Positions 3,487-50,172 are shown, counted from the stretch's first letter. The stretch: DNA of 64,000 nt from Microgenomates group bacterium RBG_16_45_19 (GCA_001803415.1 MHDC01000045.1:30747-94746), one strand, 5' to 3'. Notes: generated from the sequence alone by a model not told the origin. Translations and numbers: made by a program.

Positions 3487-5682
3487 ATGAAGAAGGGGCG
3501 AAAGACGAAGCGATTACCGACGTGGCAGGTGGTGAAGCTAGAGGGAACCCTCCAAACTTATGATGAACGGAAAGTGATCGATGCCATTTTCCTGGCGGCA
3601 CAGGAAGCCGGCGGGACCGACGAGGCTAGGGCTCAGGCATTAGGACATCAGGTCACGACTTATTTAATCCAGCAGTTTGGCCGGCAAAAACAAATTTCCA
3701 CCCGGGATATTGGGGACGCAGTCGAGCGGGTCTTGATCGAGAACCGCCAAGTCCAAACCGCCAAGGTCTACATTCTCAATCGGGATAAAAAACGGGAGGA
3801 ATACGAAGCCAAAATCCGGTTGGGGGTCAAAGACGATCTGGGTTTGAGTTTGAACAGTTTGGTGGTGATGAAACATAAATACCTACTTAAGCGACGGGGT
3901 GAGCTGGAAACCCCCAAAGAAGCTTTGACCCGGGTGGCTCGGTGTTTAGCTCAGGCTGAAAGTACGCCCAAACGGCAGCAGCAGTGGGGGGAAGCGTTTC
4001 TCACGGTGATGCTCAACCGGCAAATGTTGCCGGCCGGGCGGACCTTAGCTAATGCCGGGACGATCAACAATCAGTTGGCCAATTGCTTTGTCATGCCTTT
4101 TCCGGATGATATCGAGGGGATTTTTGAAGTGGTCAAGGAGTCGTCGATTCTGAAGAAAAACGGTGGGGCGGTCGGTTTTTCCTTTTCCAAGGTCAGACCC
4201 AAGGGGGACGTAGTCCACACCACCAGCGGTGGAGCGGCCGGACCGGTGGCTTTAATGGGGATTTTGGATCATGCCAGTCACATCTTCTTGCAAGCCGGCG
4301 GCCGGCGCTCGGGGAATATGGTCACTTTGGCGGTTGACCATCCGGACGTCTTTGAATTTATAAGCTGTAAGGAATCGGGGACTAACCTACCGAATATTAA
4401 TTATTCTTTGGAAGTGTCGGAAGCCTTTATGCAAGCTTGGGAGACGGACGGAGACTGGCGCCTAGTAAATCCCCGTAACGGTCAAGTGGTGCAAACTGTC
4501 TCGGCCCGGTCAGTGTTGGAGCAGGCCGCCCGCTTGGCTTGGCGTCGGGGTGACCCGGGAGTCATTTTTATTGACGAGATCAACAAGTATAATCCCACCC
4601 CTAAAGTGGGCCGCTTAAACACGGTTAATTTATGCGGGGAGCAACCATTGTTGGATTACGAAGCTTGCAACTTAGGTTCAATTAATTTAGGGGTACATCT
4701 GAAAGCGTTAAAGGGCAAACAAAGCACCATTGGTGACTACACCATCGATTGGCCACTCTTAGAAAAATCAACTCGGGTGGGGATCCGCCTCCTGGATAAC
4801 GTGGTAACAGTCTGCGGCTACCCCCTGCCCCAGATTGAGGCGACGGTCAAAGCCAATCGTAAAATCGGCTTAGGGGTGATGGGCTGGGCGGATATGCTGA
4901 TCCGCTTGGGGATACCCTACAGCAGCGTGGAGGCGCGGCGTTTGGCTTTAAAAGTAATGCGGTTTATTCAGCAAGCGGCTTGGTCGGAGAGTGAGAAGTT
5001 AGGTAAAGAAAAGGGGAGTTTCCCTAATTTCAAGGGTAGCTTGTGGGAAAAACGGGGTTATAAGCAGTTTCGCAACGCCACCACGACCACGATTGCCCCG
5101 ACCGGATCATTGGCCATGGTGGCCGGAGCCAGCGGGGGGATTGAGCCGTTATTTGCCTTGGCGTTTTACCGCAAAGCCATGGGCAGTTATGAACTACCGG
5201 AAGTCAATCAGGATCTAGTCATGGCCTTAAAGCGCCATAACGGCACTTATACCCCGGATCTGTTAATGCAGATTGCCAGGACCGGTTCGATTCAAACCAT
5301 CGAGCGAGTCCCGGAAAAGATTAAGCGGGTATTTGAAACGGCCATGGATATTAGTGCCGAGGATCATGTCTTGATGCAGGCGGCCTTTCAGAAATTTACC
5401 GATAATGCCGTCAGTAAAACTATTAATCTACCGGCTCAGGCTTCGGTGGAAGCGGTTATTGAAGGGTTTAATTTGGCTTGGAAATCTAAATGCAAAGGCA
5501 TCACTATCTATCGCAATAAGTCCCGCGAGGTGCAAGTCTTGAATGTTGGTCAGGCAGAACCAGTTAAGGAAGATCCGGGATCTCAGCTGAGCGGACAATG
5601 CCCCAACTGTGGGGGGAAATTAATGATGGTGGAAGGCTGTGCCACCTGCCAAAACTGCGACTATTCAGCTTGTTCCTTATGA
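3487..5682 (+). CDS. nrdJ: Class II (adenosylcobalamin-dependent) ribonucleotide reductase with N-terminal ATP-cone
   Basis: ATP-cone-like N-terminus (VVKLEGTLQTYDERKVIDAI). Core motifs NLCGEQPL and TTIAPTGS. C-terminal Cys cluster CPNCGG...CATCQNC. Confidence 0.9.
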   Translation: MKKGRKTKRLPTWQVVKLEGTLQTYDERKVIDAIFLAAQEAGGTDEARAQALGHQVTTYLIQQFGRQKQISTRDIGDAVERVLIENRQVQTAKVYILNRDKKREEYEAKIRLGVKDDLGLSLNSLVVMKHKYLLKRRGELETPKEALTRVARCLAQAESTPKRQQQWGEAFLTVMLNRQMLPAGRTLANAGTINNQLANCFVMPFPDDIEGIFEVVKESSILKKNGGAVGFSFSKVRPKGDVVHTTSGGAAGPVALMGILDHASHIFLQAGGRRSGNMVTLAVDHPDVFEFISCKESGTNLPNINYSLEVSEAFMQAWETDGDWRLVNPRNGQVVQTVSARSVLEQAARLAWRRGDPGVIFIDEINKYNPTPKVGRLNTVNLCGEQPLLDYEACNLGSINLGVHLKALKGKQSTIGDYTIDWPLLEKSTRVGIRLLDNVVTVCGYPLPQIEATVKANRKIGLGVMGWADMLIRLGIPYSSVEARRLALKVMRFIQQAAWSESEKLGKEKGSFPNFKGSLWEKRGYKQFRNATTTTIAPTGSLAMVAGASGGIEPLFALAFYRKAMGSYELPEVNQDLVMALKRHNGTYTPDLLMQIARTGSIQTIERVPEKIKRVFETAMDISAEDHVLMQAAFQKFTDNAVSKTINLPAQASVEAVIEGFNLAWKSKCKGITIYRNKSREVQVLNVGQAEPVKEDPGSQLSGQCPNCGGKLMMVEGCATCQNCDYSACSL

Positions 5683-8876: not shown

Positions 8877-9176
8877 GTGGATATGATTCAGATGCAAAAA
8901 GTGGTCAAAGTCGGAAACAGCTTGGCCGTAACCTTGGATAGCAAACAGGCGGCCTTGATGAATATTAAGGTGGGTCAGGAGTTAGCCATGGTTTACAAAG
9001 CCGATAAAGGGGTGATCAGCCTGTCTCAAACAAAAGCTGGCCTGAGCGGGGAGGTGGTAAGAAAGTCGGAGAAAGCAGCAGTTTTGGCCGGTAAAATAAC
9101 ACCGGAGCTTAAGCAATGGACCGACCGGTTTTTGCTGGAAAATGATGAGGCGATGAAGAAACTGGCTGATCTATGA
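8877..9176 (+). CDS. AbrB/SpoVT-fold antitoxin (partner of Doc)
   Basis: VVKVGNSLAVTLD swapped-hairpin motif. 4-bp overlap with the downstream doc gene. The start could be the ATG at 8883, after AGGAGG. Confidence 0.75.
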   Translation: MDMIQMQKVVKVGNSLAVTLDSKQAALMNIKVGQELAMVYKADKGVISLSQTKAGLSGEVVRKSEKAAVLAGKITPELKQWTDRFLLENDEAMKKLADL

Positions 9177-9598
9177 CGAATTATGTCACCCTGGATTTAG
9201 AGCAGGTGATTTACATCCATGAGCGGATAATTGAGGCAGCGGGTGGGGTGCAAGGAGTCAGGGATTATACAATGCTGCATTCTGCTTTAGAGCGGTGTAA
9301 AGCGACGTTTGGTGGCGAGGATTTGTATCCATCAAGTCTACATAAGGCAGCTGCCTTGTTACATTCATTGGTGATGAATCATGCTTTCTTGGATGGGAAT
9401 AAGCGGACAGCCTATGCGGTGATGGTCCGGTTTCTCAATGCGAATGGACTTAAAGTGACAGCGTCTCAGTCTGAAATCGTGACGATGTGCGTTAACGTGG
9501 ACAATGAAGGCTGGAAGGTGAGGGAGATTCTGATGTGGTTGAAACAGCGAAATTTTCACTCCGGGAGTGCAATACTCAAGACATCCCGGGGTGTCTAG
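9173..9598 (+). CDS. doc: Doc (death-on-curing) Fic-domain toxin
   Basis: Fic/Doc motif HAFLDGNKRTA. The size and TA operon arrangement fit. The last ~12 codons are supplied by the palindromic element. Confidence 0.9.
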   Translation: MTNYVTLDLEQVIYIHERIIEAAGGVQGVRDYTMLHSALERCKATFGGEDLYPSSLHKAAALLHSLVMNHAFLDGNKRTAYAVMVRFLNANGLKVTASQSEIVTMCVNVDNEGWKVREILMWLKQRNFHSGSAILKTSRGV

Positions 9599-19603: not shown

Positions 19604-19669
19604 ATGGAATTAGTTTTTTGGAATGAAAAGAAAAACAAGCAGTTAATTAAATATGAAAAAAACATTTAA
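19604..19669 (+). pseudogene. Truncated BrnT-like toxin remnant (21 codons)
   Basis: MELVFWNEKKNKQLIKYEKNI* resembles the N-terminus of BrnT/DUF497 toxins (F-x-W-D/N-x-x-K-N...). It sits directly upstream of, and overlaps, a BrnA-like antitoxin gene. Confidence 0.4.
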
Positions 19670-19925
19670 ATTAACAACTTATGAAAAGGCCATTGAAGCG
19701 AAGGCTAATCAGGTTAAACCTTACCCTAAAAGCCATAAAATCTATCGTCGATTGCGGGTAGCCGCTATAAATACAACCAAGTCTCAAGCAATTAGTTTAA
19801 GAGTGAATCACCAGACATTAAAACTGATAAAGTCTCGAGCGAGGGCGGTGGGTTTACCCTATCAAACTTTAATAAACTCAGTGTTGTATCGATACGCTAA
19901 GGGTGATTATAAACCGATGCTGTAA
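19653..19925 (+). CDS. BrnA-like (CopG/RHH-type) antitoxin
   Basis: C-terminal ISLRVNHQTLKLIKSRARAVGLPYQTLINSVLYRYAKGD matches the BrnA ribbon-helix-helix pattern. Confidence 0.65.
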   Translation: MKKTFKLTTYEKAIEAKANQVKPYPKSHKIYRRLRVAAINTTKSQAISLRVNHQTLKLIKSRARAVGLPYQTLINSVLYRYAKGDYKPML

Positions 19926-23712: not shown

Positions 23713-24609
23713 ATGGCTGTGATTATCTTTGATGGGCGGGGGGAGGCGAGGAAACGAGAGCAGGTACTGAAGCACCGGGTTGATAGTTTGGGACGAGCGC
23801 CGCGGTTGATGAGTCTGGTGTTCCATGAGGATCAAGGAGGCCAATTATACACCAGACTAAAGATGGAGGCAGCGCTTAGAGTGGGGATAGAGTTTGATCG
23901 GGAAGAATTTTCCCTGAATGATCCGGTGGAACAGTTGGTACCAGAAGTGCAGTCTTTAAGTCAGCGCCCAGATGTTCACGGCTTATTGATTCAGAAGCCG
24001 ACTAAAGCGGTCTGGAAACAGGTAACCGGAACGCACCGACATGGGGAGTTTGGCTGGTGGTGGCAACAACTGACCAGTGCTTTGGCGCCGGCCAAGGATG
24101 TTGATTGTCTGGCCAAAGCCAATTTAGATTTAGTTTATGGAGGGAACTGGCGGATCGTGCCGGCGACGGTGAAATCGATTTTAAGCATTTTGGAAATAGC
24201 CCTGAATCTATCCAATCATGAATTGACCAATAATAATGAATTAAAGCTGAAACAAGCATTGACCGGGACGAAAACGGTGGTGATCGGAAGAAGTGAGATT
24301 ATCGGGCGGCCGCTAGCGGCAGTGATGACCCAAGCAGGAGCGGTAGTGAGTCTGGTCGGATCGCAAACCGAAGACTTGGGTCAGCATACGGCTTCGGCTA
24401 AAATCGTGATCTCGGCGACGGGGGTACCTAAATTAATTAAGGAAGATTTAATTAGACCAGGAGCGGTGGTGATTGATGTGGGGTCACCGGCAGGGGATGT
24501 GGATTTTGAAGCGGTCAAGGACGAAGTGGCTTTTATCACTCCGGTTCCGGGTGGCGTCGGACCCATGACAGTGGTGTCGCTGTTGGAGAATTTGGTGGAG
24601 ATGATATAA
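23713..24609 (+). CDS. folD: Bifunctional methylenetetrahydrofolate dehydrogenase/cyclohydrolase
   Basis: VVIGRSEIIGRPLA (NADP-binding loop), TPVPGGVGPMTV, KDVDCL. Confidence 0.9.
   Translation: MAVIIFDGRGEARKREQVLKHRVDSLGRAPRLMSLVFHEDQGGQLYTRLKMEAALRVGIEFDREEFSLNDPVEQLVPEVQSLSQRPDVHGLLIQKPTKAVWKQVTGTHRHGEFGWWWQQLTSALAPAKDVDCLAKANLDLVYGGNWRIVPATVKSILSILEIALNLSNHELTNNNELKLKQALTGTKTVVIGRSEIIGRPLAAVMTQAGAVVSLVGSQTEDLGQHTASAKIVISATGVPKLIKEDLIRPGAVVIDVGSPAGDVDFEAVKDEVAFITPVPGGVGPMTVVSLLENLVEMI
24565..24602 (+). repeat. Direct repeat copy 1 (folD 3' end)
   Basis: ATGACAGTGGTGTCGCTGTTGGAGAATTTGGTGGAGAT is identical to 25155-25192. Confidence 0.95.
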
Positions 24610-24631
24610 TATATTTTGTTATTATTTAAGA

Positions 24632-24913
24632 ATGCTTCTTATGACGACCATTACGGTATCTTTACCAGATGATCTTGCCTCCCAGGTGGATGTAGTGTCT
24701 GATCGGCAGGGTTTTGCAACCAGATCGGAATTTATTCGCCATTTATTGAGAGGGTATTTGAAGGAAGAGTTGGGATTAGTTGAATTCAAAAAGTTGCCTT
24801 TGGGTGAAATTAAAAAGGGATTGGAGGCTACGGGGAAGTATAATAATAAATTTATTGACGGAGTAATAAAAGGTTTAAGGCAATCCTCCGTATATGAAGC
24901 TAAAGCCACTTAG
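24632..24913 (+). CDS. Ribbon-helix-helix (CopG/ParD-like) antitoxin
   Basis: TITVSLPDDLASQVD...RSEFIRHLLRGYL RHH pattern. Overlaps the downstream toxin gene. Confidence 0.8.
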   Translation: MLLMTTITVSLPDDLASQVDVVSDRQGFATRSEFIRHLLRGYLKEELGLVEFKKLPLGEIKKGLEATGKYNNKFIDGVIKGLRQSSVYEAKAT

Positions 24914-25139
24914 GGATAACTTGCACAGATATCTAGTCAAAAGAGGTTTGACAACGAAGTACAACAAGCAGGTTCAATTGTTTGAGGAGAATTGGCGACA
25001 CCGATCATTGAAAACTGAAATGCTTGAGCCAAAGGAGTTTAAAGTGTATTCATTTCGAATTGACAGAAAATATCGGGCCATTTTCATTATTCGGAAAGAT
25101 GAAGTGGAAGTAGTTGAGATTACCGATCATTATCAATAA
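24894..25139 (+). CDS. RelE/ParE-superfamily toxin
   Basis: 81 aa. C-terminal KYRAIFIIRKDEVEVVEITDHY is typical of the RelE/ParE fold. Paired with an RHH antitoxin. Confidence 0.7.
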   Translation: MKLKPLRDNLHRYLVKRGLTTKYNKQVQLFEENWRHRSLKTEMLEPKEFKVYSFRIDRKYRAIFIIRKDEVEVVEITDHYQ

Positions 25140-25154
25140 GAAGGGTATGGGCCA

Positions 25155-25192
25155 ATGACAGTGGTGTCGCTGTTGGAGAATTTGGTGGAGAT
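25155..25192 (+). repeat. Direct repeat copy 2 (displaced folD tail)
   Basis: A perfect 38-bp copy of 24565-24602 that still reads GPMTVVSLLENLVEIV* in frame. Confidence 0.95.
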
Positions 25193-25230
25193 AGTTTAAA
25201 TTGTATTTTAACTATTTTGTGATATAAATA

Positions 25231-25482
25231 ATGTATATGCAACAAATAGTTTCGATTACTGATCAAGGACAATTGACGATTCCCAAGCAAATATTGGGCC
25301 ATTTTGGGATAAAAAGACGAGTAAAAGCGATTATTGAACTTCAGGATAAGACGATTATTGTCAGACCCAAGCGGGATTTTTGGGATTTGGGTGGGGCATT
25401 GACCGGAAAGATTAGATTAACCGACAAACAGTTAAAGCAGGCAAGAGTGAAGTTTACTCAGGATTGGGCCGATAAGGTATGA
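25231..25482 (+). CDS. AbrB/SpoVT-type antitoxin (VapB-like)
   Basis: ITDQGQLTIPKQILGHFGIK swapped-hairpin motif. 4-bp overlap with the PIN gene. Confidence 0.75.
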   Translation: MYMQQIVSITDQGQLTIPKQILGHFGIKRRVKAIIELQDKTIIVRPKRDFWDLGGALTGKIRLTDKQLKQARVKFTQDWADKV

Positions 25483-25874
25483 AGGCGGTAGTGGATACTA
25501 ATGTTTGGGTTCGTTTTTTTGTCAGGGATAATGAAGCACAGTATCGGCAAGCAGTCGAGTGGTTTAAAACCGGCCGACTGGGCAAACGTAAGTTGGTGTT
25601 GTCAGCGGTAGTGGTGGCGGAAACCTGCTATGTATTGGATACGTTTTATCATAAAACTAGGGAAGAGATTGCTTCGGTTTGGGAAGTAGTCTTGGGGCAA
25701 CGATGGCTTGCCGTGGCGGAGCGATCGGTATTGATCGCAATGTGGCCCGGGTATCGAAACGGTTGGCATTGGGTAGATAGCTATCTTTGGGCTTGGAGTG
25801 GGGCAAATGAAGGAGATATTTTGAGTTTCGATAAGAAACTAAGACACAAAGTCGGTACAAAGAAAAATGATTAA
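25479..25874 (+). CDS. vapC: PIN-domain toxin (VapC)
   Basis: N-terminal VVDTNVWV acidic motif. About 130 aa. TA operon arrangement. Confidence 0.85.
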   Translation: MKAVVDTNVWVRFFVRDNEAQYRQAVEWFKTGRLGKRKLVLSAVVVAETCYVLDTFYHKTREEIASVWEVVLGQRWLAVAERSVLIAMWPGYRNGWHWVDSYLWAWSGANEGDILSFDKKLRHKVGTKKND

Positions 25875-25880
25875 TTTATT

Positions 25881-25918
25881 CCCTGGGTGTCTTGAGTATT
25901 GCACCCCCGGGGTGAAAG
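25881..25918. repeat. Palindromic repeat element, copy 2
   Basis: CCCTGGGTGTCTTGAGTATTGCACCCCCGGGGTGAAAG. Its reverse complement matches 9553-9591 at about 34 of 39 positions, and 25900-25916 is identical to 9604-9620. Confidence 0.8.
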
Positions 25919-25963
25919 AGTGTTGGAGAATGTTATAATGCGTTTTGAAAGAAGAAGCTATTT

Positions 25964-26164
25964 ATGGTTGATGATTATGATGGTTTGACGAGAATGGCAG
26001 TGGGATACTTAAGAGCTTTAGGCGAAGAGCCGAGCGCTCGGCAATTGGTTGAAGAGAAGTCATGGAAAATATTTATTGAAGCGGCTATGGGTAGAATTTC
26101 CCCAGATAAAGCTATTGAGTTACAGCAGGAATTACATGGATCTAGCGATTTAAGTAAAAGATAA
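25964..26164 (+). CDS. Hypothetical protein (66 aa)
   Basis: ORF only. Confidence 0.3.
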   Translation: MVDDYDGLTRMAVGYLRALGEEPSARQLVEEKSWKIFIEAAMGRISPDKAIELQQELHGSSDLSKR

Positions 26165-26286
26165 GGCTAGTTGAAATCTGTTATATTTGAGATAAACTGC
26201 ATTAATTAAATTCGCACACCGGGTGGAGCTCCTGAATAAAGTGCCTGGTGGAGGCTCCGGGGTGACACCGGAGGATAGGAGACAAA

Positions 26287-27135
26287 ATGGCTCAAGCCAA
26301 GAAACCGGTCGTTAAGACTAAGAAAAAGGTCGTACCAGTCAAGAAAGTAGTGGTTCAGCCTAAGAAAACTGAGGTAGTCGAAGTAAAAAAGGTCGAAGTA
26401 GTAGCCAAGCAGCCGGAGCGGGTTAAAGTCAAGTCCGAAGTAACGGTTGATTTAAAGGAGCTATTGGAAGCGGGGGCTCATTTTGGCCACCAGTCAAGAC
26501 GTTGGAATCCCAAGATGAAGCCATATATTTTTACTACCCGGGACGGCGTCCATATTTTTGACCTGACCTTGACGGCGCAAAAAATTAAAGAAGCAGCCGA
26601 CGCCATCGCCGATTGGGTCAGCCAGGGTCAGGAAATTATTTTTGTCGGCACCAAGCGCCAGGCACAACCGATTATCCGGGAGGAAGCGCTGAAAGTTGGC
26701 GCGCCCTATGTAGCCACCCGTTGGCTGGGAGGGATGTTGACCAACTGGACGGAAATGGAGCGGCGGATTAAGCGTTTAAATGACTTAAAAGCGAAGAGAG
26801 AGAAGGGGGAGTTAAAATTGTATACCAAGCGGGAACGAGTGATGATCGATAAAGACATTGCCAAACTGGAACGCTTTTTCGGCGGCATCGCTCACTTGAC
26901 CGAAAGACCCCAGGCTTTATTCGTAGTCGATACCCATAAAGAAGTGGCAGCGGTCAAAGAAGCCAAAAAGTTAAACTTGATGGTTATCGGCTTGGTCGAC
27001 ACTAACGCTGATCCTTATGAGGTAACCATTCCCATTCCCATTAACGACGACGCGGTCCGGTCGATTAAATTAGTGGTAAACAAAATGGCGGAAGCTTATC
27101 GGCAAGGTCGACAAATTAAGGACCAAGGAAAGTGA
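26287..27135 (+). CDS. rpsB: 30S ribosomal protein S2 with Lys/Val-rich N-terminal extension
   Basis: HFGHQSRRWNPKM and ATRWLGGMLTN motifs, preceded by about 55 aa of KKPVVKTKKKVVPVKK... extension. Confidence 0.95.
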   Translation: MAQAKKPVVKTKKKVVPVKKVVVQPKKTEVVEVKKVEVVAKQPERVKVKSEVTVDLKELLEAGAHFGHQSRRWNPKMKPYIFTTRDGVHIFDLTLTAQKIKEAADAIADWVSQGQEIIFVGTKRQAQPIIREEALKVGAPYVATRWLGGMLTNWTEMERRIKRLNDLKAKREKGELKLYTKRERVMIDKDIAKLERFFGGIAHLTERPQALFVVDTHKEVAAVKEAKKLNLMVIGLVDTNADPYEVTIPIPINDDAVRSIKLVVNKMAEAYRQGRQIKDQGK

Positions 27136-38144: not shown

Positions 38145-38450
38145 ATGAATATCCAATTACAGAATATCGTGCCGGTGAGCGAGGCTCGAATCAAGTTAAA
38201 TGAGATGGTGAATCAGACTAAGCCGAATAATCCTTACATTATTTCCAAATCCGGTAAGCCTAAGGTAGTTTTAATCGATGTGGGCGAATATGATGAATTA
38301 TTGAAGCTCAAGGCCAAGCAGGAATTGGCTGCCTTGACCATACAAGCTAGAAAAGATTTTACCGACTTTCTGCAAGCTAGGGGTCTGAATTTGAATAAAT
38401 TGACCGACGATGAGGCAGAAGCGATTTTGGTCAATGAGTATTTAGCCTAA
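38145..38450 (+). CDS. Phd/YefM-family antitoxin
   Basis: VPVSEARIKLNEMVNQ...PYIISKSGKPKVVLIDVGEYDEL pattern. Located immediately upstream of the PIN toxin. Confidence 0.8.
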   Translation: MNIQLQNIVPVSEARIKLNEMVNQTKPNNPYIISKSGKPKVVLIDVGEYDELLKLKAKQELAALTIQARKDFTDFLQARGLNLNKLTDDEAEAILVNEYLA

Positions 38451-38864
38451 ATGATGCGGATAATTCTTGATACCAACGTCTGGTTATCGGGGATTTTTTG
38501 GAGAGGTAAACCGGGAATAATTATTGATCGAATCTTTTCAGGCGAGACTGAACTTATGCCGGTTTTTTCAGCGGTAACTTTAGCTGAACTGGAATCCAAG
38601 ATACGGAAGCGTTATCCGTATCGGTTAATCCATAGAATTCGAAGCCTTAGCTTGATGGTGGCAAATGTTCCCAGCACCAAGATAAAAGTTAGAGACCCCA
38701 ATGATCAAATATTAGTAGATTTATGTATCGCAGCAAAGGTATCGGTGTTAATAACGGGGGATAAGGACCTTTTAGTTTTAAAGAAAATCGGTAGAACTAG
38801 AGTCGTTACTCCGAGTGAGTTTGTCTTGATGTTGAGCGTGGCGAAAAGTGATTTCCTGGCTTGA
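38451..38864 (+). CDS. PIN-domain toxin
   Basis: MRIILDTNVW, LITGDKDL. The start abuts the antitoxin stop. Confidence 0.85.
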   Translation: MMRIILDTNVWLSGIFWRGKPGIIIDRIFSGETELMPVFSAVTLAELESKIRKRYPYRLIHRIRSLSLMVANVPSTKIKVRDPNDQILVDLCIAAKVSVLITGDKDLLVLKKIGRTRVVTPSEFVLMLSVAKSDFLA

Positions 38865-38890
38865 CAAGCGGGGGGATAATTATTGCCATG
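38860..38890 (+). repeat. Duplicated gene junction, copy 1
   Basis: CTTGACAAGCGGGGGGATAATTATTGCCATG holds the stop of the PIN gene, a spacer, and the ATG of the next ORF. Compare 39972-40000. Confidence 0.85.
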
Positions 38891-39976
38891 CATACACTTG
38901 AATCTGATTTAACACCAAATGATAGGGCGTTTTGGAAGTCGTTGTTGAAAGTGGATAGGGGACAACTTAGGTGGGAGATACAAGATTTAAATATCCAATT
39001 CCACGAAGAACCGCTAAGATCAATTTTGTTAAATGGACCACCGAGAGAATATAATGCCCGTAATTGTTTTGATCCACGGATTGGTGATAGATACCCATTA
39101 GTCAAGAAAGGGGCAGCAGATTATGTAGCACCTCAAGGAGAGGAGTTAGGTGTCTGGGGATTACTAAGGTCAGCGAGTTTATCGGAGGTTATTTTAAAGC
39201 AATTGGCACCATTAGATCCCCAGAGAATTTTATTAGTTGGTGCGATATCTCAAGAAAGTTTATATGGAATATTAGCATCGATGGATGGGCTGGGTTGGAA
39301 GGAAGCTGAATTGACCGTGGTTGACAAATCCTTGGTCCCTTTAACAGTCTTAAAAAGACTAAATGAGACCGGTCATTGGTCTTGGAAGCCTGGAGTAAGG
39401 CTAGTGCATAGTGATATTAGATATTTCAATGAATGGGGTGCTTATGATTTGGTTTTAATGGATATTGTCAGTGCTTATACGATCGACCGGTTGAATTATT
39501 GCCATCGTGTAGGAGAAAATCCTTTTGCGAAGTATAGGCAAATATTACAAACATGCAAGGCGTTGGTGTCAAATGGGGGATTATTTATCAGTCGGACATT
39601 ATCGTTTAGTGGGTATCAACCAAAAAAGCATCCTGAGCCAGTTGCCGAAGAAATTTTACAGGAGCGATTAGGAATTTTACGGAACCAATTAGGGGAGGAG
39701 ATTTTTAATCAATTAGGCCAAGACTATCTGGCCGAAATGGTAGAGTCAATCTGGTATTATCCGTATCCGGAAACTTCTTGTGGGTTAGCTTTGATCTCTG
39801 CCTGGGGTGGGTGCCAACCAACTTTGCCGGTTGAGATTGAAACGGGTGGACCCGAGACTTTTAGGCAACTGTACGCTGATATTTTAGGAAAGAATGAGGA
39901 AATTCGGGTATTCTCAGCGCCATTAGGTTGGTTACTGCAAACCTTTTGTTGGCCAAAACCGGGTTATCAGTCTTGA
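38888..39976 (+). CDS. Hypothetical protein with degenerate class I methyltransferase-like fold
   Basis: Rossmann-like succession RILLVGAIS / LTVVDKS / HSDIRYF / DLVLMDIV / NGGLFIS, but no GxGxG. The ATG at 38888 is preferred over the TTG at 38861. Confidence 0.5.
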   Translation: MHTLESDLTPNDRAFWKSLLKVDRGQLRWEIQDLNIQFHEEPLRSILLNGPPREYNARNCFDPRIGDRYPLVKKGAADYVAPQGEELGVWGLLRSASLSEVILKQLAPLDPQRILLVGAISQESLYGILASMDGLGWKEAELTVVDKSLVPLTVLKRLNETGHWSWKPGVRLVHSDIRYFNEWGAYDLVLMDIVSAYTIDRLNYCHRVGENPFAKYRQILQTCKALVSNGGLFISRTLSFSGYQPKKHPEPVAEEILQERLGILRNQLGEEIFNQLGQDYLAEMVESIWYYPYPETSCGLALISAWGGCQPTLPVEIETGGPETFRQLYADILGKNEEIRVFSAPLGWLLQTFCWPKPGYQS

Positions 39977-40000
39977 CAAGCGGGGGGAAAATTAGCCATG
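39972..40000 (+). repeat. Duplicated gene junction, copy 2
   Basis: CTTGACAAGCGGGGGGAAAATTAGCCATG. Its first 17 nt are identical to copy 1, and it again spans a TGA stop and the next ATG. Confidence 0.85.
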
Positions 40001-48848: not shown

Positions 48849-48917
48849 ACGGAAAAACCAATATTTAGAATTTCACTTCAGTTTCCATCCGCCCAACCCC
48901 AGAAAAGAAAGGATTAT
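48849..48917 (+). repeat. 67-bp direct repeat, copy A
   Basis: A 33-bp perfect core, AAAAACCAATATTTAGAATTTCACTTCAGTTTC (48853-48885), is shared with 50108-50140. The flanking ~30 bp are about 80% identical. Confidence 0.9.
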
Positions 48918-49012: not shown

Positions 49013-49336
49013 ATGAAACTTGCCATTCTTCTTTCAACCAACAATGCAGAAACTAACTGGAATGCTTTTCGTCTTGCTAACTTAGCTTTATCTAAAGGTG
49101 ATACTGTTTCTGTTTTTCTTCTTGGTGAGGGTGTGGAATATGGACAAGCAAGCTCTTCTCAATTCAATGTTAAAGAACAGGTTGAAAAGTTCTTGCAATC
49201 AGAAAACACACAGATTATTGCCTGTGGTACATGCTTGGCGATAAGAAAACAAGGAAGCACGAAAGAGTGTCCTGAAGGCAGTCTTGAAGACTGGTATCGC
49301 ATCGTTTCCGAAAGTGATAAAGTTCTTACCTTTTGA
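49013..49336 (+). CDS. DsrE/DsrF-like family protein
   Basis: 107 aa. The pattern MKLAILLSTNN...FLLGEGV...IIACGTCL is typical of DsrE-like sulfur-relay-fold proteins. Confidence 0.6.
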   Translation: MKLAILLSTNNAETNWNAFRLANLALSKGDTVSVFLLGEGVEYGQASSSQFNVKEQVEKFLQSENTQIIACGTCLAIRKQGSTKECPEGSLEDWYRIVSESDKVLTF

Positions 49337-49349
49337 AAATGAGCAAATT

Positions 49350-50006
49350 ATGAAAAAAGTGCTGTTAAGTACTATCCTTTTATTCACTTTGTTACTAACT
49401 CCATCTGCAACCTTTGCTCAAGGTATGATGGGTAACTGGACTAGCTCACCATCATCTGTGACCTCTGACGACCACACTGCTGGTGAAGAAATTGAAGGAA
49501 AAGAGGTCTGGGAAAAACTCCAAGCAAAACAACTTGAGTGTAAGAGCCTCATGGATGACAACTATGAAGTGCTTGGTGAATACTTCATGGGTCAATCTAT
49601 CGGGAATACTCAAAGACACGCACTGATGAACCAAATGATGACCAGTATGATGGGTGAAGAAGGCGAAGAACAAATGCATATTGCTATGGGAAAAAGATTA
49701 AGTGGTTGTGAACCTAATGCTCAAGTTCCTTCAAATGGAGTTGGATTTATGCCGATGATGTGGATGATGGGAGGAGGTGGTAATCCTATGATGGGTGGTT
49801 GGAATGGGTTTGGTATTTTGGGATGGATTCCAATGCTTCTTTTCTGGATACTCCTTATTCTCGGTGTCATTGCTTTAATACGTTATCTTGGAAGGTCAGG
49901 ACAACAGCAGGAGAATAAAACACCACTGGAAATATTGAAAGAAAGATATGCTGGTGGAGAAATAAATAAAAAAGAGTTTGAGGAAATGAAAAAGGACTTA
50001 GCTTAA
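49350..50006 (+). CDS. Secreted/membrane Met-Gly-rich protein with C-terminal SHOCT domain
   Basis: Signal peptide MKKVLLSTILLFTLLLTPSATFA. A Met/Gly-rich segment, one TM helix, and a SHOCT-like tail LEILKERYAGGEINKKEFEEMKKDL. Confidence 0.6.
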   Translation: MKKVLLSTILLFTLLLTPSATFAQGMMGNWTSSPSSVTSDDHTAGEEIEGKEVWEKLQAKQLECKSLMDDNYEVLGEYFMGQSIGNTQRHALMNQMMTSMMGEEGEEQMHIAMGKRLSGCEPNAQVPSNGVGFMPMMWMMGGGGNPMMGGWNGFGILGWIPMLLFWILLILGVIALIRYLGRSGQQQENKTPLEILKERYAGGEINKKEFEEMKKDLA

Positions 50007-50103: not shown

Positions 50104-50172
50104 ACGAAAAAACCAATATTTAGAATTTCACTTCAGTTTCAAGCCTCCCAATCCCAGAAAAGAGAGGATAAA
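50104..50172 (+). repeat. 67-bp direct repeat, copy B
   Basis: See copy A. Same orientation, 1255 bp downstream. Confidence 0.9.

What the first reader, a model, noticed from the sequence alone, without database searches (positions are those of the whole stretch)
24565..25931. Toxin-antitoxin cassettes stacked at the folD 3' end, separated by copies of the folD tail
Seen in sequence: folD ends ..GPMTVVSLLENLVEMI*. The 38 bp ATGACAGTGGTGTCGCTGTTGGAGAATTTGGTGGAGAT (24565-24602) recurs perfectly at 25155-25192, 590 bp downstream. There it still reads GPMTVVSLLENLVEIV* in frame. The DNA between the two copies is exactly one RHH/RelE-ParE TA pair. An 11-bp core of the repeat, TGTTGGAGAAT, occurs a third time at 25921-25931. 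That third copy follows directly after the next TA pair (AbrB/VapC) and its palindromic element.

Established: integrative elements that target the 3' end of a gene carry a copy of that end and so leave such direct repeats (attL/attR).

Inference: two minimal TA-only cassettes were inserted successively at a site in the folD tail, each regenerating the folD C-terminus. No integrase is present in the window, so the mobilising enzyme acts in trans or has been lost.
Basis: partly seen in the sequence, partly recalled or inferred. Interest (0 to 1): 0.6.

Follow-up and report, generated by a model that had tools for sequence, protein, structure and literature searches.

The report
Toxin-antitoxin cassettes stacked behind displaced folD tails
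Two tiny toxin-antitoxin gene pairs lie between folD and rpsB of a candidate-phyla-radiation bacterium, separated by left-over copies of the folD tail; related loci suggest such cassettes spread by ordinary recombination anchored in a neighbouring housekeeping gene, not by their own integrase.

Summary
A 38-nt exact repeat of the folD tail (24565-24602 / 25155-25192) brackets one RHH/YoeB-like toxin-antitoxin (TA) pair. A third 11-nt copy follows the AbrB/PIN pair. Three independent assemblies reproduce the layout. Distant relatives have folD directly next to rpsB, so the ~1.7 kb between them is inserted.

The att-site/integrase reading is not supported:
- No recombinase was found among about 60 window ORFs.
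- In a survey of 58 unique loci of the same TA family, 16 are bracketed by direct repeats, against 3 of 257 shifted controls. The repeat differs at every locus and comes from the local neighbour gene.
- Where the repeat is a gene tail, the second copy is an in-frame, diverged version with its own stop (31 synonymous vs 15 non-synonymous codon differences). It is a displaced orthologous tail.
- At a Curtissbacteria cysS locus, empty and occupied alleles exist. The occupied ones are clean mosaics: the crossover lies inside cysS, and the donor segment is the cysS end plus the TA pair.

Best reading: recombinase-free, homology-anchored acquisition that displaces the resident gene end, repeated to give a stack. 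The footprint matches "insertion with long target duplication", known for restriction-modification genes. I rate it a new variant of a known kind. For folD itself the mechanism is inferred by analogy.

The parts
23713..24609 (+). folD (methylene-THF dehydrogenase/cyclohydrolase), the functional anchor gene
   Evidence: Pfam THF_DHG_CYH_C 3.2e-40 and THF_DHG_CYH 2.7e-13. 100% identical to a protein of Microgenomates bacterium RBG_16_45_19.
24559..24609 (+). folD tail copy 1 (exact core 24565-24602); the in-use C-terminus ..GPMTVVSLLENLVEMI*. The stop TAA 24607-24609 lies inside TATAAT 24605-24610, and a -35-like TTGGAG sits at 24583-24588.
   Evidence: hexamers and the 16-nt spacing read directly from the sequence.
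24603..24640 (+). Left junction and truncated cassette promoter/operator. The family's TTGACA half is missing. Palindrome TAAGAA-TGC-TTCTTA at 24627-24641.
   Evidence: Comparison with the family consensus CTTGACAAAAATTAAGAAATATTGTTAAATATT..ATG; sequence.
24641..24913 (+). Antitoxin 1, ribbon-helix-helix (the ORF can also start at 24632)
   Evidence: Pfam RHH_1 1.9e-6, 28 bits against a 20.5 cut-off. Homologues start MTTLTISLP.
24894..25139 (+). Toxin 1, YoeB/RelE-superfamily fold; overlaps the antitoxin gene by 20 nt
   Evidence: AlphaFold2 pLDDT 90.5. Foldseek PDB top hits are YoeB (7v6w_E, E 4e-5, TM 0.77), then RelE/YafQ/HigB. Pfam YoeB/HigB/ParE hits fall below their cut-offs.
25149..25199 (+). 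folD tail copy 2 (exact core 25155-25192): a displaced, in-frame pseudo-tail ..GPMTVVSLLENLVEIV* with its own TAA at 25197-25199
25231..25482 (+). Antitoxin 2, AbrB/MazE-like
   Evidence: Pfam MazE_antitoxin 4.4e-5, 23.8 bits, just under the 24.7 cut-off.
25479..25874 (+). Toxin 2, PIN domain (VapC-like); 4-nt overlap with antitoxin 2
   Evidence: Pfam PIN 2.7e-8, 34.9 bits against a 23.6 cut-off.
25870..25921 (+).
   Evidence: RNA fold -16.2 kcal/mol, z -1.66; no T-run and no terminator call.
25921..25939 (+). folD tail copy 3, degenerate: 11-mer TGTTGGAGAAT (25921-25931) fused to TGTTATAAT (25931-25939). It equals copy 1 minus 11 nt. This is the best promoter-like site of the region.
   Evidence: In relative L006 the folD stop lies inside the same TGTTATAAT.
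25964..26164 (+). 66-aa ORF with no family match; possibly a third small insert between copy 3 and the rpsB promoter/leader
   Evidence: No Pfam hit. Relatives have only 78-115 nt between folD and rpsB.
26179..26187 (+). TGTTATATT, an extended -10-like box about 100 nt upstream of rpsB; possible fourth partial copy and present rpsB promoter (weak)
   Evidence: Read from the sequence. Same position relative to rpsB as TGTTATAAT in L006. Not statistically tested.
26287..27135 (+). rpsB, the gene that directly follows folD in relatives (right border of the inserted block)
   Evidence: Pfam Ribosomal_S2 1.9e-84; synteny in L005, L006 and L007.

Best explanation
The 1.7 kb between folD and rpsB is a stack of minimal, recombinase-free addiction cassettes. 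Each cassette is only a promoter/operator, an antitoxin gene and a toxin gene.

Proposed mechanism:
1. A cassette arrives on DNA from a related lineage together with the adjacent end of the same housekeeping gene.
2. That gene end serves as the homology anchor for host recombination on one side.
3. The other junction falls inside or just beyond the resident gene end. The resident tail is therefore not lost; it is pushed downstream as a short, in-frame, diverged ('homeologous') pseudo-tail.
4. The gene keeps a working C-terminus, supplied by the incoming DNA. The cassette ends up bracketed by two copies of the tail.
5. Repeating the process at the still-functional gene end pushes older cassettes and tails outward.

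Applied to this window, the RHH/YoeB-like pair behind copy 1 is the youngest insert (38-nt perfect core). The AbrB/PIN pair behind copy 2 is older (copy 3 is decayed).

Shown:
- The block is inserted.
- The family-wide flanking repeats are specific to each target.
- The second copies carry the signature of coding-sequence divergence.
- Homologous crossovers lie inside the anchor gene at the cysS locus.
- The window holds no recombinase.

Inferred:
- That folD in this genome was hit by the same process.
- The nature of the second junction: illegitimate or short-homology joining, as in homology-facilitated illegitimate recombination, or Campbell-type insertion of a circularised fragment.
- The route of DNA entry.
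For: 1. Insertion. Relatives L005 and L006/L007 have folD immediately followed by rpsB-tsf-frr-M50. GC falls from about 0.50 to 0.37-0.38 across TA1.

2. Family survey. Flanking direct repeats bracket the TA pair in 16 of 58 unique loci (E<0.01) and 10 of 58 (E<1e-4). Shifted controls give 3 of 257 and 1 of 257; Fisher p = 1.7e-10 and 2e-7. The repeats are 12-75 nt, differ at every locus, and start 3-23 nt after the toxin stop in most loci.

3. Cassette limits. Conservation runs only from the -35 box to the toxin stop, with no shared terminal motif.

4. Displaced tails. In all five loci where the repeat is the tail of the upstream gene, copy 2 is in frame with a stop at the same position (WIN folD, L019 ABC transporter, L046, L047, L085 cysS). 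Differing codons are 31 synonymous against 15 non-synonymous (0.22 expected synonymous; p = 5e-11). Differences by codon position are 13/9/41.

5. Natural experiment at cysS.
- The empty allele L104-L107 has a single tail.
- Occupied L100 matches L104 at all 51 discriminating sites up to position 3900, then matches L085 at all 57 sites from 4032 through the TA pair.
- L109 and L098 switch within the last ~18 nt of cysS.
- The protein-tail type predicted occupancy correctly: P0164 (..GLVF) is occupied and P0165 (..GLKF) is empty.

6. Independent stack. L038 has three copies of an ~80-nt gene head separating an RHH/RelE pair and a PIN pair.

7. No mobility enzyme. No integrase, transposase or recombinase was found among about 60 window ORFs. 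The TA family is absent from viral contigs.
Against: - No close relative of this genome was available; the nearest FolD is 65% identical. A mosaic folD or an empty/occupied polymorphism could therefore not be shown for the window itself. All three assemblies are occupied.
- A 38-nt perfect core with sharply diverged flanks is longer than uniform donor-recipient divergence predicts. It needs either strong nucleotide conservation of this stretch (partly seen in relatives) or later gene conversion between the copies.
- 42 of 58 family loci show no detectable flanking repeat.
- The second junction was never observed being made. The consistent position of the right repeat, a few nt after the toxin stop, could instead point to a defined cassette end recognised by an unknown enzyme.
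- A large serine recombinase sits near the cysS/tRNA-Gln hot spot in one relative (L108).
- Copy 3 rests on 11 nt plus a -10 box.
Confidence: 0.55

Rival explanations
1. Site-specific integration. The folD tail is an attB. Each TA cassette is, or was part of, an integrative element carrying an attP copy of the tail. It was inserted by a tyrosine or serine integrase acting in trans or since lost, leaving attL/attR. This would resemble integrase-less CIMEs formed by tandem accretion.
For: - Direct repeats contain the 3' end of the target gene and restore it.
- A perfect core with diverged arms is what attP x attB products look like.
- Stacking resembles tandem accretion.
- A large serine recombinase lies next to the cysS/tRNA-Gln hot spot in L108.
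Against: - No recombinase among about 60 window ORFs.
- The same TA family is flanked by different, locus-specific repeats at many genes, so there is no element-borne att.
- Nothing is conserved beyond the -35 box and the toxin stop.
- In the cysS group, crossovers lie at two different places in long identical stretches (131 nt and ~10 nt), as in homologous rather than site-specific recombination.
- Repeats bracket the 0.6-kb TA unit tightly in more than 10 independent loci. Precise decay of larger islands each time is unlikely.
Confidence: 0.1
2. True 'insertion with long target duplication'. An unknown transposition-like or double-strand-break repair process with widely staggered cuts (about 40-80 nt) inserts the cassette and duplicates the target in situ. 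Later allelic replacement or gene conversion makes the copies look diverged.
For: - The footprint matches that described for restriction-modification units: 30-420-bp target duplications, unique targets, no mobility genes, some overlapping gene 3' ends (PMC2853133).
- Some repeats are perfect: WIN 38 nt, L070 64 nt, L040 108 nt.
- The right repeat usually starts 3-23 nt after the toxin stop.
Against: - Second copies carry many synonymous-type differences and keep frame and stop. An untranslated copy decaying neutrally should not (p = 5e-11). L047 has 9 synonymous and 0 non-synonymous codon differences.
- In the window the 5-6 differences all lie outside the 38-nt core.
- The cysS mosaics show homologous crossovers.
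- No terminal inverted repeats or end motifs.
Confidence: 0.17
3. Campbell-type insertion. A cassette already flanked by repeats excises as a small circle (tail + TA) by recombination between its repeats. It re-integrates in a related genome by a single crossover in the short conserved tail core. This needs host recombination but only one homologous segment.
For: - It produces hybrid copies with an identical core and diverged arms, as in the window.
- It explains stacking at the functional gene end and passenger tails that travel with the cassette. The L085-type displaced tail is also present in L109, on a different cysS body.
Against: - It cannot create the first repeat at a new gene.
- Cores are as short as 14 nt (L047, L085), poor substrates for RecA.
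- In L100 the donor tract includes at least 120 nt of cysS upstream of the tail plus the spacer, more than a tail-bounded circle would carry.
- No circular forms are observable here.
Confidence: 0.13
4. Artefact or chance: the second tail copy comes from chimeric assembly of strain variants, and the 11-mer is a random match.
For: - The sequence is a metagenome-assembled genome.
- Occupied cysS contigs often end at the cassette.
- Copy 3 is only 11 nt.
Against: - Three assemblies made with different assemblers and k-mers (k141 exceeds the repeat length) agree at 99.9-100%.
- The same architecture recurs in unrelated samples and collections.
- The 38-mer has zero expectation. The 11-mer occurs nowhere else in 64 kb.
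Confidence: 0.03

Closest known systems
Insertion with long target duplication of restriction-modification gene units (Nobusato et al. 2000, Gene 259:99; Furuta, Abe & Kobayashi 2010, PMC2853133)
   Same: - A small addiction-type gene unit with no mobility gene.
- Flanked by long (more than 30 bp), imperfect direct repeats of a locus-specific target that is single-copy at empty sites.
- Repeats can overlap the 3' end of a neighbouring gene.
- Noted mainly in naturally competent bacteria; mechanism unresolved.
   Different: - The cargo here is a type II TA pair, not R-M genes. The 2014 review by Mruk & Kobayashi ascribes this mode to R-M systems only.
- The two copies are shown here to be diverged orthologous gene ends, not a simple duplication.
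- Mosaic alleles point to homologous recombination.
- Cassettes are stacked.
C-terminal displacement and orphan toxin/immunity arrays of Rhs and CdiA loci (from my own knowledge: Jackson et al. 2009, BMC Genomics; Poole et al. 2011)
   Same: - A functional gene end is replaced by incoming DNA through recombination in the conserved part of the gene.
- The old end is pushed downstream and keeps a fragment of the gene.
- Repetition gives an array of modules separated by repeated gene fragments, youngest next to the gene.
   Different: - In Rhs/CdiA loci the displaced tip is itself the toxin domain, with its immunity gene.
- Here the anchor is an ordinary housekeeping gene (folD, cysS, ABC transporter). 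The tail is 15-25 codons with no toxic role, and the TA pair is a separate operon.
CIMEs and tandem accretion at gene 3' ends (integrase-less, att-flanked elements, e.g. the fda locus of Streptococcus thermophilus; from my own knowledge)
   Same: Elements without an integrase, bounded by direct repeats that include the 3' end of a protein-coding gene, arranged in tandem.
   Different: - CIME repeats are true att sites of a known ICE integrase family and are the same for all members.
- Here the repeats differ from locus to locus, and no integrase is linked.
Minimal mobile elements of Neisseria and homology-facilitated illegitimate recombination in transformable bacteria (from my own knowledge: Saunders & Snyder 2007; de Vries & Wackernagel 2002; Prudhomme et al. 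2002)
   Same: - Cargo with no mobility genes moves between related genomes by host recombination in conserved flanking genes.
- One-sided homology with an illegitimate second joint can trap foreign DNA next to the anchor.
- The cysS to tRNA-Gln interval behaves like such a variable slot.
   Different: Systematic retention of the displaced resident gene end as a flanking repeat, and integron-like stacking of TA pairs, are not part of those descriptions. Transformation in these uncultured bacteria is unproven.
Integron gene-cassette arrays (many chromosomal TA pairs are integron cassettes)
   Same: Arrays of promoter-poor or minimal cassettes, including TA pairs, separated by similar repeats, with new cassettes entering at one end.
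   Different: - No IntI and no attC-type imperfect palindromes.
- The repeat here is a coding gene tail, and each cassette has its own promoter/operator.

Membership tests
Type II TA, RHH antitoxin + RelE/YoeB-superfamily toxin (cassette 1) | Two small co-directional genes, antitoxin first, overlapping or abutting | tested here: met
   24641-24913 and 24894-25139 overlap by 20 nt. The same layout occurs in all homologous loci.
Type II TA, RHH antitoxin + RelE/YoeB-superfamily toxin (cassette 1) | Antitoxin with an N-terminal ribbon-helix-helix DNA-binding domain | tested here: met
   Pfam RHH_1 1.9e-6, 28 bits, above the 20.5 cut-off.
Type II TA, RHH antitoxin + RelE/YoeB-superfamily toxin (cassette 1) | Toxin with the RelE/YoeB microbial RNase fold | tested here: met
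   Model pLDDT 90.5. Foldseek: YoeB E 4e-5, TM 0.77, then RelE/YafQ/HigB. By sequence alone the Pfam hits stay below their cut-offs.
Type II TA, RHH antitoxin + RelE/YoeB-superfamily toxin (cassette 1) | Toxicity neutralised by the cognate antitoxin; autoregulation at a palindromic operator | not testable with these tools
   Only the operator-like palindromes are visible: the family consensus ATTAAGAAATATT..AATATTCTTAAT and, in the window, TAAGAA-TGC-TTCTTA at 24627-24641.
VapBC-type TA (cassette 2) | PIN-domain toxin preceded by a small antitoxin gene with a 4-nt overlap | tested here: met
   PIN 34.9 bits against a 23.6 cut-off. Genes 25231-25482 and 25479-25874 overlap by 4 nt.
VapBC-type TA (cassette 2) | AbrB/SpoVT-MazE-fold antitoxin | tested here: inconclusive
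   Pfam MazE_antitoxin 23.8 bits, just under the 24.7 cut-off.
Integrase-mediated integrative element (attL/attR at a gene 3' end; CIME if the integrase is lost) | Direct repeats at both ends that contain and restore the 3' end of the target gene | tested here: met
Integrase-mediated integrative element (attL/attR at a gene 3' end; CIME if the integrase is lost) | A tyrosine or serine recombinase in or near the element | tested here: not met
   Pfam scan of about 60 ORFs across the 64-kb window found only TopA and RecR, with no integrase, transposase or resolvase. The rest of the genome could not be searched.
Integrase-mediated integrative element (attL/attR at a gene 3' end; CIME if the integrase is lost) | Members of the element family share one att core (an element-borne attP) | tested here: not met
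   The flanking repeats of 16 family loci are all different and derive from the local target. Nothing is conserved outside the -35 box to toxin stop.
Insertion with long target duplication (criteria of Furuta et al. 2010) | Insert under 20 kb without mobility genes, flanked by direct repeats longer than 30 bp | tested here: met
   552-nt insert; 38-nt exact repeat, 61-69 nt with mismatches. Criteria quoted.
Insertion with long target duplication (criteria of Furuta et al. 2010) | The repeated sequence is present once at the empty site of a related genome | tested here: met
   For folD this is shown only in distant relatives, which have a single tail followed by rpsB (L005, L006). For the same TA family at cysS it is shown in the same genomic background (L104 empty vs L100/L109 occupied).
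Insertion with long target duplication (criteria of Furuta et al. 2010) | Cargo is a restriction-modification unit | tested here: not met
   The cargo is a type II TA pair, so this is a variant rather than a member as originally defined.
Insertion with long target duplication (criteria of Furuta et al. 2010) | Both copies arise by duplication of one target molecule | tested here: not met
   The copies differ in a coding-type pattern: 31 synonymous against 15 non-synonymous codons, p = 5e-11. The cysS alleles are donor/recipient mosaics.
Integron cassette array | IntI integrase and attC sites (imperfect palindromes) between cassettes | tested here: not met
   No integrase. The inter-cassette repeat is a non-palindromic coding tail.
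Rhs/CdiA C-terminal displacement array | Displaced modules each start with a fragment of the main gene | tested here: met
   Copies 2 and 3 of the folD tail head the older modules. L038 has three copies of a gene head.
Rhs/CdiA C-terminal displacement array | The displaced gene end encodes the polymorphic toxin domain, followed by its immunity gene | tested here: not met
   The displaced ends are 15-25 codons of housekeeping proteins. The toxins are separate genes.

The most novel reading that the evidence does not exclude
Minimal type II TA operons in candidate-phyla-radiation (CPR) bacteria may be a distinct class of recombinase-free mobile cassette.
- They spread by hitch-hiking on homologous recombination of the ends of essential genes.
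- They displace the resident gene end each time and build integron-like stacks without an integrase.
- Because cassette and gene end travel together, the addiction module may drive introgression of foreign alleles of housekeeping genes across lineages that differ by about 15-20% in DNA.
- Alternatively, still unexcluded, an unknown trans-acting enzyme recognises the cassette end just after the toxin stop and makes long staggered target cuts.
Probability: 0.3. Interest if true: 0.75.

Novelty: new variant of a known kind. Interest (0 to 1): 0.6.

Why it matters
How chromosomal toxin-antitoxin modules move when they are not carried by plasmids, phages, integrons or transposons is a long-standing loose end. 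The 2014 review read here ascribes their mobility to carriage by known elements.

What this locus and its relatives add:
- A concrete, testable footprint: a 0.6-kb promoter-to-stop unit bracketed by a live and a displaced copy of a neighbouring gene end, present in about a quarter of one TA family's loci.
- One case with empty and occupied alleles whose mosaic structure shows homologous crossovers inside the anchor gene.

If general, three things follow:
- TA pairs would join restriction-modification units in sharing the 'long target duplication' footprint, and that footprint would have a mechanistic reading.
- It would explain how streamlined CPR genomes accumulate TA pairs next to essential genes without damaging them.
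- Addiction modules could drag housekeeping-gene segments across species boundaries.

Displaced gene tails would also be a simple annotation marker for such insertions.

Tried and rejected
- The genome-contig scan with FolD found only distant relatives (32% and 26% identity), so nothing usable came from that collection.
- The closest FolD anywhere in the protein database is 65% identical, so no mosaic test of folD was possible.
- Closest homologues of the toxin are 66% identical, so no donor could be identified.
- The viral-contig scan with the toxin profile found no relatives.
- Rfam and tRNA scans of the window found nothing, so no tRNA-type att site is involved.
- A protein-level search for displaced tails in repeat-negative loci added no new cases beyond the four found by DNA. 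A first, slower version timed out.
- Extending copy 3 beyond the 11-mer by alignment gave no further similarity upstream.
- The hairpin after PIN is not significantly more stable than shuffles and is not called as a terminator.
- No terminal inverted repeats or shared end motifs were seen in the aligned cassette ends. A weak 7/11 match between the ends of one sub-lineage was judged to be chance.
- Three literature searches for TA cassettes flanked by duplicated gene ends returned nothing relevant. Pandey & Gerdes 2005 is not held.
- In-situ tandem duplication followed by neutral decay was rejected because of the codon-position pattern.

Full report
**Checking the observation.** The window comes from Microgenomates bacterium RBG_16_45_19, a candidate-phyla-radiation (CPR) genome; its FolD is 100% identical to P0001.
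- folD (23713-24609) ends ..GPMTVVSLLENLVEMI*.
- The 38-mer at 24565-24602 recurs exactly at 25155-25192 and nowhere else in 64 kb.
- Similarity extends over 69 nt at 83%.
- Between the copies lie a ribbon-helix-helix gene and an 81-aa gene. The 81-aa product models confidently (pLDDT 90.5) and matches YoeB/RelE toxins (7v6w_E, E 4e-5, TM 0.77).
- An AbrB/MazE-like gene plus a PIN gene follow.
- The 11-mer TGTTGGAGAAT occurs three times in the window, all in this locus (0.06 expected). The third copy lies 46 nt after the PIN stop, but nothing around it aligns.
- Three other assemblies reproduce folD-TA1-copy2-TA2 at 99.9-100%, so the duplication is not an assembly artefact.

**The block is an insertion.** Relatives L005 and L006/L007 (55-56% FolD identity) have folD followed after 78-115 nt by rpsB-tsf-(membrane protein)-frr-M50 protease, the same order as in the window.
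- The 1.7 kb at 24610-26286 is therefore lineage-specific.
- GC drops from about 0.50 to 0.37-0.38 across the first cassette.
- In L006 the folD stop lies inside TGTTATAAT, a likely extended -10 box for rpsB.
- The window's copy 3 reads TGTTGGAGAAT fused to TGTTATAAT and is the best promoter-like site of the region. This fits a decayed original folD end.
- A further TGTTATATT lies about 100 nt before rpsB, and a 66-aa orphan ORF lies between the two. This last point is weak.

**No recombinase.** Pfam scans of about 60 ORFs covering the window found housekeeping genes and three more TA-like modules. They found no integrase, transposase or resolvase. There is no tRNA gene and no Rfam match.

**The decisive step was to look at the same TA family elsewhere.**
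- The toxin's nearest homologue (66% identity, L019) sits behind an ABC-transporter gene. That gene's last 16 codons are repeated in frame just after the TA pair: FQIEGNKKLLEKFEIY* against FQAKGVKKLLEKFEIY*.
- I fetched 80 more loci with a toxin profile and scored repeats bracketing the pair.
- 16 of 58 unique loci have one at E<0.01, and 10 of 58 at E<1e-4.
- The same geometry shifted by 1-2.2 kb gives 3 of 257 and 1 of 257. Fisher p = 1.7e-10 and 2e-7.
- The repeats are 12-75 nt, 88-100% identical, and different at every locus. They usually start 3-23 nt after the toxin stop and end just upstream of the cassette promoter.
- Across loci, conservation runs only from the -35 box (CTTGACAAAAATTAAGAAATATTGTTAAATATT) to the toxin stop. 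That is the whole mobile unit, with no shared end motif.
- The window's cassette lacks the TTGACA half. The folD tail and the junction supply TTGGAG-16 nt-TATAAT, and the folD stop lies inside the -10 box.

**The second copies are displaced orthologous gene ends.** This holds in all five loci where the repeat is the tail of the upstream gene: window folD, L019, L046, L047 and L085 cysS.
- Copy 2 keeps the frame and has a stop at the same position.
- The copies differ at 31 codons synonymously and 15 non-synonymously, against 0.22 expected synonymous (p = 5e-11).
- Differences by codon position are 13/9/41.
- L047 has nine synonymous differences and no amino-acid change.
- An untranslated duplicate decaying in place would not look like this. 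The two tails diverged as coding sequence in different lineages.
- Other repeats are gene heads or terminators of neighbouring genes.

**A natural experiment at cysS shows how this happens.** L085's anchor gene is cysS of a Curtissbacteria genome.
- Its homologues fall into tail types that predicted occupancy. P0165 (..GLKF) contigs are empty: cysS, then 20 nt, then a 325-aa gene, with tRNA-Gln further downstream.
- P0162 and P0164 contigs, on the same genomic background, carry the TA pair.
- L100 matches the empty allele at all 51 discriminating sites up to position 3900. It then matches L085 at all 57 sites from 4032 through the cysS end, the spacer and both TA genes.
- L109 and L098 switch within the last ~18 nt of cysS.
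- These are clean homologous crossovers inside the housekeeping gene, at different points, bringing in 'gene end + cassette' from a lineage about 15-20% diverged.
- L085 and L109 also carry, after the cassette, a displaced tail of a third type. The right sides differ among recombinants.

**Stacking recurs.** L038 has three copies of an ~80-nt head of a prepilin-peptidase-like gene. They separate an RHH/RelE pair and a PIN pair, with the copy nearest the gene most similar to it. Other small units are also repeat-flanked: a PIN pair in L064, and a DUF5678/retropepsin pair in L040 with a perfect 108-nt repeat.

**Interpretation.** The window's architecture is best read as repeated, recombinase-free, homology-anchored acquisition at the folD end.
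- The youngest cassette is next to folD.
- Older cassettes and displaced tails are pushed towards rpsB.
- I infer this for folD by analogy. It could not be shown directly because no close relative exists.
- The 38-nt perfect core is longer than uniform divergence predicts. Conservation of this stretch or gene conversion may explain it.
- The second junction may be illegitimate joining, short-homology joining or Campbell-type insertion; this remains open. So does an unknown enzyme making long staggered cuts.

**Comparison with known systems.**
- The footprint equals 'insertion with long target duplication', described for restriction-modification units (PMC2853133). A 2014 review does not attribute it to TA systems (PMC3874152).
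- The geometry also mirrors Rhs/CdiA C-terminal displacement.
- Membership in integrase-mediated elements or integrons fails on tested features.

**Verdict.** The finding is real. This is a new variant of a known kind, with moderate to high interest.

Noticed in passing
window 48849-48914 and 50104-50169: A 66-nt direct repeat (91% identical, 1255 nt apart) brackets a two-gene unit: a DsrE-like gene (49013-49336) and a SHOCT-domain membrane protein (49350-50006). This looks like another repeat-flanked insert with no mobility gene.
   Followed up: partly
window 38860-38882 and 39972-39994: A 23-nt direct repeat (96% identical) starts at the stop codon of a PIN toxin gene (Phd/PIN pair, 38145-38864). 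It recurs at the stop of the next, family-less 371-aa ORF, so that single gene is also bracketed.
   Followed up: partly
window 26200-26286; L005 6975-7050; L006 6945-7008: The rpsB 5' leader has a conserved CACACC..GG hairpin-rich sequence in the window and in two distant relatives, but no Rfam family matches it. It may be an uncatalogued S2 leader/autoregulatory element.
   Followed up: no
window 8877-9598, 19653-19925, 38145-38864: Three more TA-like modules sit among housekeeping genes: MazE-like + Fic/Doc, a BrnA/CopG-like antitoxin whose end overlaps the glyA start, and Phd + PIN. That makes five such modules in 64 kb of a small genome.
   Followed up: partly
window 25618-25655 (inside the PIN gene): All four mismatches between assembly L009 and the window fall at 25618-25642. 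Scaffold L008 has a gap at 25618-25655. This could be a strain-variable spot or an assembly-break point inside toxin 2.
   Followed up: no
L003 3789-4601; L004 6931-8079: In the two closest relatives (62-65% FolD identity), folD is followed by an APH-type kinase gene rather than rpsB. The folD 3' junction is therefore a synteny break there too.
   Followed up: no
L108 4400-5857 (minus strand): In one Curtissbacteria relative, cysS is followed directly by tRNA-Gln and then by a large serine recombinase (Resolvase + Recombinase + Zn_ribbon). The cysS/tRNA-Gln interval is thus also used by a recombinase-bearing element.
   Followed up: no
L098 736-803 and L104 6358-6424 (opposite strand): The ~68 nt just after the toxin stop in one cassette sub-lineage recur, inverted, just after the stop of an unrelated small gene pair (65 aa + 122 aa) in another contig. 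This could be a shared 3' element or terminator; its role is unknown.
   Followed up: no
L100-L103 contig ends: All four contigs with the occupied cysS allele end inside or within about 210 nt after the TA pair, whereas contigs with the empty allele run on. This suggests a polymorphic, graph-branching site in those samples.
   Followed up: no
L040 1693-1800 and 2402-2509: A perfect 108-nt direct repeat brackets a DUF5678 + retropepsin-like aspartyl-protease gene pair next to the RelE-type cassette.
   Followed up: partly
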